This document shows, in pieces, positions 58,790-58,932 of a DNA stretch of 64,000 nt; within the stretch, counting starts at the first letter, position 1; each line of letters begins with the position of its first letter. A model generated the notes under the pieces. The model was not told the DNA's origin. It made no database searches and saw only the letters and a list, made by a program, of their open reading frames with translations. Both the position numbers and the translations under genes were made by a program. This stretch comes from Escherichia coli (GTDB lineage Bacteria > Pseudomonadota > Gammaproteobacteria > Enterobacterales > Enterobacteriaceae), in assembly GCF_003019035.1 (NCBI RefSeq), contig NZ_CP027447.1, one strand, 5' to 3'.

Positions 58790-58932
58790 GTTAACTCGGT
58801 AAGCAGCCGTTTGCGGCCAGCAATAGAGGTGACTGTATAACAGATTTGCGGGAATGGGAAAATGATATATGGCAACAAGTTGACACTGGTGTACTGAGCG
58901 AAATTATGCCGCGCTGGCAGGCGCGGCACAGA

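What the first reader, a model, noticed from the sequence alone, without database searches (positions are those of the whole stretch)
58790..58932. Separate upstream region for the GntR regulator with a partial copy of the transporter-upstream motif
The 143-bp gap between the kinase stop and the regulator start is long enough for its own promoter. It contains gactgtataacagatttgcg, which shares the cagatttg tail with motif copy 2 (tgacatgtcagatttggg), hinting at autoregulation. The match is weak.
Basis: seen in the sequence. Interest (0 to 1): 0.2.

Follow-up and report, generated by a model that had tools for sequence, protein, structure and literature searches.

The report
Regulator gene's own promoter region
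The gap between the sugar-kinase gene and the GntR regulator gene most likely holds an end-of-operon hairpin and the regulator's own conserved promoter, and the supposed partial copy of the transporter-upstream motif is a chance resemblance, so the finding is ordinary.

Summary
The window is E. coli. The finding lies in a five-gene accessory sugar-acid island (MFS transporter, 2-hydroxyacid dehydrogenase, RraA-like protein, PfkB kinase, GntR/FCD regulator). The island sits between ilvC and ppiC and occurs in 31 of 5426 complete genomes.

The quoted strings are at the stated coordinates. The conserved regulator start is 58768, not 58789, so the gap is 164 bp, not 143.

The shared 8-mer CAGATTTG is at chance level (P about 0.11). 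A weight matrix from 28 real operators (consensus AAATCTGACATGTCAGATTT) scores the three transporter-upstream sites at 23-26 bits.

All 14 distinct enterobacterial orthologues carry TCTGkTATA[C/A/T] in the gene's orientation. It lies exactly 17 nt downstream of a second conserved block, and it is kept even where the upstream gene differs. A matrix built only from distant orthologues ranks the E. coli site first of 127,970 window positions.

The best reading has three parts:
- a hairpin that ends the operon (58907-58928);
- an extended -10 type promoter for the regulator, TTTTCC-17-TGT-TATACA;
- no sequence evidence for autoregulation in E. coli.

Two Vibrio orthologues do carry a weak operator-like site at their own promoter. 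The case is ordinary and of low interest.

The parts
58907..58928 (-). GC-rich hairpin (arms TGCCGCGC / GCGCGGCA, 6-nt loop) 5 nt after the kinase stop. It is followed by AUAAUUUCGCU. It is a probable leaky terminator or 3'-end stabiliser of the catabolic operon.
   Evidence: The inverted repeat is 100% complementary. The 51-nt fold is -19.8 kcal/mol, z = -3.3. It fails the T-run criterion of the terminator scan in E. coli, but K. spallanzanii has ACAUUUUCUC after the same stem, and L011 has a 13-bp stem followed by UUUUCU. Non-homologous hairpins sit at the same place in L015, L012, L016, L019 and L022/L026.
58856..58876 (-). Block A, GTTGCCATATATCATTTTCCC. This is the conserved upstream block of the regulator promoter region. 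It contains the candidate -35 hexamer TTTTCC (58862-58857, 3/6) and a TATCAT hexamer (58867-58862).
   Evidence: It is near-identical in E. coli, K. spallanzanii, L024, L015 and L007. Homologous blocks (TATCATTTGCG, TATTATTTTCG, nCATGTCCG) lie at exactly the same distance from Block B in all other enterobacterial orthologues.
58832..58847 (-). Block B, AAATCTGTTATACAGT. It is an extended -10-like element: TG at 58842-58841, hexamer TATACA at 58839-58834, with an alternative register TACAGT at 58837-58832.
   Evidence: TCTGkTATA[C/A/T] is present upstream of the regulator gene in 14 distinct enterobacterial sequences, always in the gene's orientation. A matrix built from 6 distant orthologues only ranks this site first of 127,970 positions in the window. 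It is the best sigma-70-like candidate in the gap when TG is credited.
58824..58828 (-). Predicted transcription start zone for the regulator mRNA, giving a 5' UTR of about 56-60 nt.
   Evidence: This is inference only, from 6-8 nt downstream of either -10 register. No transcript data were available.
58766..58768 (-). Conserved start codon of the GntR/FCD regulator (MTTDLLKD...).
   Evidence: N-terminal alignment of 15 orthologues. RefSeq CDS 58130-58768. The upstream ATG at 58787-58789 is not conserved.
58130..58768 (-). GntR-family regulator gene with an FCD effector domain (FadR subfamily), 212 aa.
   Evidence: Pfam GntR 8.7e-18 and FCD 4e-24. No NCBIfam equivalog reaches its cut-off.
58933..59871 (-). 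PfkB-family sugar-acid kinase (KDG-kinase-like), the last catabolic gene of the operon.
   Evidence: Pfam PfkB 2.4e-55. RefSeq annotation.
63157..63176 (.). Genuine operator copy 3 (TTTGTGACATGTCAGTTTA), nearest the transporter start. It is the reference for what a real site looks like.
   Evidence: Operator matrix score 23.6 bits. Homologous sites lie upstream of the MFS genes in L004, L008, L012 and L016.
63298..63317 (.). Genuine operator copy 2 (AAATCTGACATGTCAAAAAA on the minus strand).
   Evidence: Operator matrix score 23.3 bits.
63393..63412 (.). Genuine operator copy 1 (CAATCTGACATGTTAGTTAT on the minus strand).
   Evidence: Operator matrix score 26.1 bits.

Best explanation
The 164-bp gap (58769-58932, genes on the minus strand) is an ordinary operon-end and regulator-promoter junction.

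(1) Hairpin. A strong hairpin lies just after the kinase stop (58907-58928) and has a poor U-tract. It probably terminates or stabilises most catabolic transcripts and lets some read through.

(2) Promoter. About 40 nt further on, the regulator gene has its own sigma-70 promoter of the extended -10 class. It has a weak -35 region inside conserved Block A (TTTTCC, 58862-58857), a 17-nt spacer, then TGT-TATACA (58842-58834). The predicted start is near 58824-58828, giving a leader of about 58 nt.

Its AAATCTG overlap with the operator flank is coincidental. The true operator of the island is the palindrome CTGACATGTCAG, with three copies upstream of the transporter, and it is absent from the gap. 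In E. coli the regulator is therefore probably made at a low, largely constitutive level, plus whatever reads through the hairpin on induction, rather than being directly autorepressed.

Shown: the conservation, spacing, orientation and matrix scores.
Inferred: that the conserved blocks are a promoter, the exact -10 register, the start site, and the absence of binding.
For: Context.
- The window is 100% identical to E. coli SCU-301. The five genes lie between ilvC and ppiC.

Real operator.
- 28 sites from 9 loci give the consensus AAATCTGACATGTCAGATTT, with scores of 14-27.5 bits.
- The window has only three strong hits, all upstream of the transporter. The next best is 11.6 bits.

The gap against the operator matrix.
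- The best operator score in the gap is -2.0.

Block B.
- It is found upstream of the regulator gene in every enterobacterial orthologue and nowhere else in the 4-15 kb loci, always in the gene's orientation.
- The leave-clade-out matrix ranks it first of 127,970 positions.
- The base after TG varies freely (T/G/C), as expected for TGn. The hexamer varies among TATACA, TATACC, TATAAA and TATATA.

Block A.
- It lies exactly 17 nt upstream of TCTG in all lineages, and the intervening 8-10 nt are unconserved.
- In Vibrio L017 the same offset from the CAT of an operator-like site holds a perfect TATAAT.

Independence from the upstream gene.
- The blocks stay with the regulator when the upstream gene is different (L004, L009, L013, L023/L028).

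E. coli against K. spallanzanii.
- There is 1 difference in 58810-58882 against 11 in 58883-58929 (Fisher P = 1.3e-4).

Hairpin.
-.

Published background on TGn promoters (PMC2613000).
- TGn compensates for poor -35 and imperfect -10 elements.
- Most TGn promoters keep at least 3/6 in the -35 element.
Against: - No transcript data exist for this island, so no start site is shown.
- In the TGn register the hexamer never ends in T (-7 is A or C in all 14 sequences), although -7T is one of the best conserved -10 positions.
- The alternative register (TACAGT, TAAAAT, TACCGT, TACCCT) restores T-12/A-11/T-7 in the E. coli-like group, but it puts TG two bases too far upstream and fails in the Pantoea-like group.
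- The standard promoter scan found no minus-strand promoter in the gap at 9/12.
- TGGTATACA also resembles the canonical FadR-family box (tGGTATACCa), so a protein-binding role for Block B is not excluded.
- Block A scores in the top 0.02-5% of background on the operator matrix in several lineages. It could be a decayed or very weak operator.
Confidence: 0.6

Rival explanations
1. Block B (TCTGTTATACAG) is a protein-binding operator of the canonical FadR-family type (GT-N-AC). It would be bound by the island's own regulator in a second recognition mode, or by a host FadR-family protein such as an ExuR/UxuR-like regulator. The regulator gene would then be auto- or cross-regulated, possibly with the operator overlapping the -10.
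For: - In E. coli CTGT-N3-ACAG is a small dyad.
- L011 has a near-palindrome CTGTTATACCAG, and the Pantoea-like group has TGGTATACAT.
- From my own knowledge, these resemble known FCD-regulator boxes: ATGTATACAT of Atu1419, whose structure 6z74 is among the closest solved relatives, and TGGTATACCA of ExuR/UxuR.
- The C of TATAC is conserved in 9 of 14 sequences, which a sigma-70 -10 element does not require.
- T is consistently absent at -7.
Against: - Conservation is asymmetric. The left part TCTGkTA is kept, but the right half is not the mirror image and varies (TACAG, TACAT, TAAAG, TATAT, TACCC).
- The element always has the same orientation relative to the gene and never occurs at the catabolic promoters of the regulon.
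- The regulon's real operator has invariant A-C at the two positions where Block B has k-T.
- Five lineages have TATAAA or TATATA instead of TATAC.
Confidence: 0.2
2. There is no promoter in the gap. The regulator is made only by read-through from the transporter promoter, and the conserved blocks act at the RNA level (leader structure, processing or translation control).
For: - The hairpin has a poor U-tract in E. coli, so read-through is likely.
- No canonical promoter was found at 9/12.
- The regulator has no obvious Shine-Dalgarno sequence close to the ATG.
Against: - Blocks A and B are kept with the regulator where it follows unrelated genes or a gene on the opposite strand (L004, L009, L013).
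- The two blocks are separated by an unconserved spacer of fixed length, which is a DNA-recognition pattern rather than an RNA helix.
- Rfam finds nothing.
- Vibrio orthologues have near-consensus promoters at the equivalent place.
Confidence: 0.1
3. The gap carries a plus-strand promoter (TTGACA-16-AATTAT, 58880-58907) that drives an antisense RNA across the kinase 3' end.
For: It is the best consensus match in the 6-kb scan, at 10/12.
Against: - Ten promoter-like hits were found against 9.0 expected in shuffles.
- In K. spallanzanii, which is otherwise 91% identical in the gap, both hexamers are changed (TTGCCG and AAAATG).
- No ORF or Rfam family lies downstream of it.
Confidence: 0.05

Closest known systems
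Extended -10 (TGn/-10) sigma-70 promoters such as galP1 (TGnTATGGT), PcysG and lambda Pre (review PMC2613000)
   Same: TG lies one base upstream of a TATA-type hexamer. The -35 is weak (3/6). The block upstream is conserved and A/T-rich. The architecture is kept across orthologues.
   Different: No start site has been mapped. The hexamer lacks T at -7 in every orthologue (TATACA/TATACC/TATAAA/TATATA), which is unusual even for TGn promoters.
Repressor genes with their own weak promoter next to the operon they control (lacI-type arrangement; own knowledge)
   Same: The local repressor gene is adjacent to its target operon. It has separate promoter signals and no operator at its own promoter.
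   Different: Here the regulator is the last gene, on the same strand as the operon and behind a leaky hairpin. Induction could therefore raise regulator mRNA by read-through.
E. coli dgoRKADT (D-galactonate) and similar FCD-type GntR sugar-acid operons (own knowledge)
   Same: An FCD-domain GntR repressor, a KDG/KDGal-type PfkB kinase and an anion:cation-symporter-type MFS transporter. Palindromic operators and a CRP-like site lie at the operon promoter.
   Different: In dgo the regulator is the first gene and is autoregulated from the operon promoter. Here it is last, with its own promoter region. The operator core (TGACATGTCA) has AC..GT where canonical FadR-family boxes have GT..AC. The cluster also has a 2-hydroxyacid dehydrogenase and an RraA-like protein.
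Canonical FadR-subfamily operators (tGGTATACCa of ExuR/UxuR; ATGTATACAT of Atu1419, PDB 6z74; own knowledge)
   Same: Block B contains TGGTATACA or TGTTATACA, which is close to half plus the centre of these boxes.
   Different: The second half-site is not conserved and the orientation is fixed, so the dyad that defines those operators is missing.

Membership tests
Operator of this island's regulon (palindrome CTGACATGTCAG) | Scores within the range of real sites on a matrix built from regulon sites (14-27.5 bits) | tested here: not met
The best hit anywhere in the gap is -2.0. Real sites in the window score 23.3-26.1.
Operator of this island's regulon (palindrome CTGACATGTCAG) | Invariant core TrACA|TGTyA with dyad symmetry | tested here: not met
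   The gap has TGTTA|TACAG. Only the flank AAATC plus TG is shared. The left half-site scores 1.2 bits, with 1.7 such hits expected per gap.
Operator of this island's regulon (palindrome CTGACATGTCAG) | An operator-type site conserved upstream of the regulator gene in orthologues | tested here: inconclusive
   It is absent in all enterobacterial orthologues (scores no higher than 3.8). It is present weakly in Vibrio L010 and L017 at -72 (9.2 and 10.2 bits), overlapping TTGACA.
Sigma-70 extended -10 promoter | TG at -15/-14, one base upstream of the -10 hexamer | tested here: met
   TGT-TATACA at 58842-58834. TGn-TATAnn is present in all 14 enterobacterial sequences.
Sigma-70 extended -10 promoter | -10 hexamer with T-12, A-11 and T-7 | tested here: inconclusive
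   T-12 and A-11 are always present. -7 is A or C in the TGn register. T-7 is present only in the +2 register, and only in the E. coli-like group.
Sigma-70 extended -10 promoter | -35 region with at least 3/6 match at 16-18 nt | tested here: met
   TTTTCC (3/6) at 17 nt in the TGn register. TTCCCA (4/6) lies at 15 nt from TATACA and at 17 nt only from the alternative hexamer TACAGT. The criterion is taken from PMC2613000.
Sigma-70 extended -10 promoter | Mapped transcription start 6-8 nt downstream | not testable with these tools
   No transcript data for island-carrying strains are available in the tools.
Intrinsic (Rho-independent) terminator | GC-rich stem-loop directly after the stop codon | tested here: met
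   8-10 bp stem, 6-nt loop, -19.8 kcal/mol, z = -3.3.
Intrinsic (Rho-independent) terminator | U-rich tract (at least 5 of 8) immediately 3' of the stem | tested here: not met
   The E. coli tail is AUAAUUUCGCU and was not called by the scan. The feature is met in K. spallanzanii (ACAUUUUCUC) and L011 (UUUUCU).
GntR family, FadR (FCD) subfamily regulator | N-terminal GntR winged-helix domain plus C-terminal FCD domain | tested here: met
   PF00392 8.7e-18 and PF07729 4e-24. The closest solved relatives are FCD-type GntR proteins at E about 1e-13.

The most novel reading that the evidence does not exclude
The conserved TCTGkTATAC element is not only a -10 region. It would also be a second, asymmetric recognition site through which the island's FCD regulator (or a host ExuR/UxuR-type protein) controls regulator synthesis. 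One GntR protein would then read two different box types: AC..GT at the catabolic promoters and GT..AC at its own. Block A would be the decayed remnant of an ancestral full operator that Vibrio still keeps.
Probability: 0.15. Interest if true: 0.35.

Novelty: new member of a known kind. Interest (0 to 1): 0.12.

Why it matters
It matters little beyond correct annotation.
- The regulator start should be 58768.
- The island should be described as two transcription units: an operon ending in a leaky hairpin, and a regulator with its own promoter.
- The regulator should not be listed as autoregulated on the strength of this sequence.

The useful by-product is a clean operator definition (CTGACATGTCAG, 28 sites in 9 loci) for an uncharacterised, horizontally mobile sugar-acid catabolic cluster. 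It gives anyone studying the cluster ready targets for footprinting and reporter work.

Tried and rejected
- Known RNA family in the gap: Rfam at E up to 1 found nothing.
- Small ORFs in the gap: only mechanical ORFs of 31-54 aa, with no support.
- Sigma-54 reading of TGGCAACAAGTTGCC in L007 and E. coli: the GG-to-GC spacing is one base short and E. coli has TTGA, so it was rejected by inspection.
- Sigma-E reading of TCTGn: there is no GGAACTT at -35 and the fifth base is never A, so it was rejected by inspection.
- LexA box: CTGT-N3-ACAG, not N8, so it was rejected.
- TATCAT (58867-58862) as the universal -10: it is good in the E. coli-like group but is replaced by CGTCAT, CCTCAT or GCAGAT in the Pantoea-like group, so it is not a family-wide -10.
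- Variation among E. coli strains: all 31 carriers are 100% identical over 58700-59000, so this was uninformative.
- Literature: no paper was found for TGACATGTCA as a bacterial operator, for the RefSeq protein accessions, or for an ilvC-ppiC island.
- Loci L005 and L006 (33-34% identity, alphaproteobacteria) and L018 (48%) were treated as non-orthologous and not used.
- The site GAGTTAACATGCCGGAATT at -30 (9/12 to the operator core) scores -2.0. About 0.3 such hits are expected per gap and it is not conserved beyond close relatives, so it was treated as chance.

Full report
**Where the finding sits.** The window is E. coli, 100% identical to strain SCU-301 over 58000-63600. The finding lies in a five-gene accessory island inserted between ilvC and ppiC. 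All five genes are on the minus strand:
- an MFS transporter (61700-63037 from the conserved ATG; RefSeq starts at 63084);
- a 2-hydroxyacid dehydrogenase annotated 'C-terminal binding protein' (60625-61584);
- an RraA-family protein (59937-60593);
- a PfkB sugar kinase (58933-59871);
- a GntR-family regulator (58130-58768).

Only 31 of 5426 complete E. coli genomes carry the island. Pfam confirms the families, and the regulator has GntR plus FCD domains, which places it in the FadR subfamily. No NCBIfam equivalog reaches its cut-off for any of the five proteins, so the pathway is uncharacterised.

**Check of the observation.**
- The two quoted strings are at 58831-58850 and 63303-63320.
However, in 15 orthologues the conserved N-terminus starts at M-(T/A/K)-x-DLLKD, which is the ATG at 58768 and also the RefSeq start.
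- The upstream ATG is AAG in L015, is lost by a one-base deletion in L024, and in L022 its equivalent runs into a stop. The gap is therefore 164 bp (58769-58932).
- The shared 8-mer CAGATTTG occurs 4 times in the window against 2.95 expected.
- 11% of dinucleotide shuffles of the gap share at least one 8-mer with one of the three motif copies. On its own the match is not above chance.

**The transporter-upstream motif.** I fetched orthologous loci from genomes and metagenomes, with regulator identity from 100% down to 59% (synteny):
- K. spallanzanii;
- a Citrobacter metagenome-assembled genome;
- Atlantibacter;
- Pantoea;
- Rouxiella;
- several unnamed enterobacterial contigs;
- three Vibrio-type loci (L010, L014, L017).

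A palindrome with the core CTGACATGTCAG and A/T-rich flanks occurs upstream of the transporter gene (MFS or TRAP dctP), of the divergent MRJP/SGL-like gene where it is present, and of the dehydrogenase gene in the syntenic loci examined.

A symmetrised matrix from 28 sites has the consensus AAATCTGACATGTCAGATTT, and the training sites score 14-27.5 bits. In the 64-kb window only three positions score high, all upstream of the transporter: 63393-63412 at 26.1, 63157-63176 at 23.6 and 63298-63317 at 23.3. The next best is 11.6. The regulator is the only transcription factor that travels with the cluster, so it is the obvious candidate for binding this site. That assignment is inference.

**Is the gap sequence a partial copy?** It is not.
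- The left half-site alone scores 1.2 bits, and 1.7 equally good hits are expected in a gap of this size. The right half scores -34.
- The best operator-like 20-mer anywhere in the gap scores -2.0.
- What is shared with the operator is its low-information flank plus TG. The invariant core TrACA|TGTyA is missing.

**What the sequence really is.**
- All 14 distinct enterobacterial sequences carry (A/T)(A/T)TCTG-k-TATA-(C/A/T)-(A/C) upstream of the regulator gene, 46-175 nt from the ATG, always in the gene's orientation.
- A matrix of this element finds it only there in each 4-15 kb locus, never at the catabolic promoters.
- A matrix built only from six distant orthologues (the E. coli-like sequences excluded) ranks 58832-58847 (minus strand) first of 127,970 positions in the window.
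- Exactly 17 nt upstream of TCTG lies a second conserved block. It reads TATCATTTTCC in the E. coli-like group, TATCATTTGCG in L013, TATTATTTTCG in L009, and nCATGTCCG in the Pantoea-like group. The 8-10 nt between the two blocks are unconserved.
- Both blocks stay with the regulator where the upstream gene differs. In Pantoea L004 two unrelated genes intervene. In L009 the neighbour is a LysR gene. In L013 it is a truncated kinase remnant. In L023/L028 it is the dehydrogenase.
- Between E. coli and K. spallanzanii, whose island coding regions are 94-97% identical, the gap has 15 differences. Eleven lie in 58883-58929 and only one in 58810-58882 (Fisher P = 1.3e-4).

**Mechanism I consider most likely.** Two conserved blocks separated by an unconserved spacer of fixed length, in fixed orientation and travelling with the gene, are the signature of a promoter.
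- In E. coli the arrangement is TTTTCC (3/6) - 17 nt - TGT - TATACA (4/6). This is an extended -10 promoter with TG at 58842-58841.
- The base after TG varies freely (T, G or C), as expected for TGn.
- The hexamer varies among TATACA, TATACC, TATAAA and TATATA.
- In Vibrio L017 the same offset from the CAT of the upstream block holds a perfect TATAAT. L010 has TTGACA-16-TGT-TAATAT.
- The review PMC2613000 documents three relevant points: TGn compensates for poor -35 and imperfect -10 elements, most TGn promoters keep at least 3/6 at -35, and 38% have 3 or fewer matches in the -10 element.
- The predicted start is near 58824-58828.

Upstream of the promoter, 5 nt after the kinase stop, is a perfect 8-bp (extendable to 10-bp) GC-rich hairpin at 58907-58928. 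It folds at -19.8 kcal/mol with z = -3.3. Its U-tract is poor in E. coli, and the terminator scan did not call it. The tract is better in K. spallanzanii and L011. Non-homologous hairpins occupy the same place in most other loci. I read it as a leaky terminator or 3' stabiliser. The regulator would then be transcribed from its own weak promoter plus some read-through when the operon is induced.

**Weak points.**
- No start site is available.
- In the TGn register the hexamer never has T at -7.
- The +2 register (TACAGT, TAAAAT, TACCGT, TACCCT) restores T-12/A-11/T-7 in the E. coli-like group, but it misplaces the TG and fails in the Pantoea-like group.
- The consensus scan found no minus-strand promoter in the gap at 9/12.
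- TGGTATACA resembles canonical FadR-family boxes, so Block B could also be, or overlap, a protein site. Against that, the conservation is asymmetric, the right half is not a mirror image, and five lineages have TATAAA or TATATA.
- Block A scores in the top 0.02-5% of background on the operator matrix at its fixed position in several lineages (best 3.8 bits in L023; E. coli -11.1). It may be a decayed remnant of the operator-like site that Vibrio keeps at -72 (9.2 and 10.2 bits, overlapping TTGACA).
- Autoregulation is therefore plausible in Vibrio. It is unsupported, though not excluded, in E. coli.

**Other readings.** The plus-strand TTGACA-16-AATTAT (58880-58907) is the best consensus match in the scan. 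The scan as a whole is at chance level (10 found against 9.0 expected), and both hexamers are changed in K. spallanzanii. Rfam finds nothing, and the small ORFs have no support.

**Comparison with known systems.** This works like a local repressor gene with its own weak promoter beside its operon, and like TGn/-10 promoters such as galP1. It is a GntR/FCD regulator by domain content, but only distantly related to any solved or named member. It fails the tests for being a copy of the island's operator. I found no literature on the cluster, its proteins or the operator.

**Verdict.**
- It is a new member of a known kind, and the interest is low.

Noticed in passing
window 63157-63176, 63298-63317, 63393-63412: There are three strong copies of a 12-bp palindrome, CTGACATGTCAG, with A/T flanks, upstream of the transporter (23-26 bits). 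The same motif lies upstream of the transporter, MRJP-like and dehydrogenase genes in the syntenic orthologous loci examined (28 sites in 9 loci). Its core has AC..GT where canonical FadR-family boxes have GT..AC. No paper in the library describes it as a bacterial operator.
   Followed up: partly
window 63262-63277: A CRP-like site, TGTGATGCTTGTCACT (one mismatch to TGTGA-N6-TCACA), lies between operator copies 2 and 3. Similar TGTGA-N6-TCAC sites occur in the homologous regions of L007, L011 and L012. The window-wide count is at chance level (4 against 1.8 expected), so the support is positional only.
   Followed up: partly
window 61585-61699: The E. coli transporter-dehydrogenase intergenic region has no operator. 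The other enterobacterial loci where this region was examined (L004, L007, L008, L011, L012, L016) have AAAACTAACATGTCAGATT directly upstream of the dehydrogenase start. E. coli instead has a promoter-like TAGAAA-16-TATAAT at 61629-61602.
   Followed up: partly
window 58130-63441 (whole island): The island is present in only 31 of 5426 complete E. coli genomes, between ilvC and ppiC. Its regulator protein is 100% identical in Klebsiella spallanzanii and in a Citrobacter metagenome-assembled genome, which suggests recent horizontal transfer. The E. coli version lacks the MRJP/SGL-like gene and the Eda-type aldolase gene found in some related loci. Vibrio versions use a TRAP transporter instead of the MFS transporter. 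The substrate is unknown.
   Followed up: partly
window 58880-58907 (+): TTGACA-16-AATTAT on the plus strand, antisense to the kinase 3' end, is the best consensus promoter match in the 6-kb scan. Both hexamers are changed in K. spallanzanii.
   Followed up: yes
L007 about 6852-6879 (Atlantibacter); window about 58862-58885: Atlantibacter has a perfect inverted repeat with 12-bp arms, ATATATGGCAAC-AA-GTTGCCATATAT. Its right arm is the upstream part of Block A. E. coli keeps the right arm and only a degenerate left arm (GTGTCAAC). The function is unknown.
   Followed up: no
L010 and L017, about 200 nt upstream of the regulator ATG (inside the dctM 3' end): There are operator-matrix hits of 13.8 and 15.2 bits (TTGCCATGTTAGTAAT and GTGCCATGTTAGTAAT) within the coding 3' end of dctM in two Vibrio loci. 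They could be real internal operators or a by-product of conserved coding sequence.
   Followed up: no
L011 6920-6935: This locus has two Block-B-like elements. TTTGCTATATAA sits at the homologous position, and a near-palindrome CCTGTTATACCAGTT lies 30 nt downstream. The second is the best candidate anywhere for a FadR-type dyad near a regulator promoter.
   Followed up: no
L008 2868-4207 and 6035-6971 (Rouxiella chamberiensis): The transporter and the kinase each match as two pieces or split gene calls, so this copy of the cluster may be decaying into pseudogenes.
   Followed up: no
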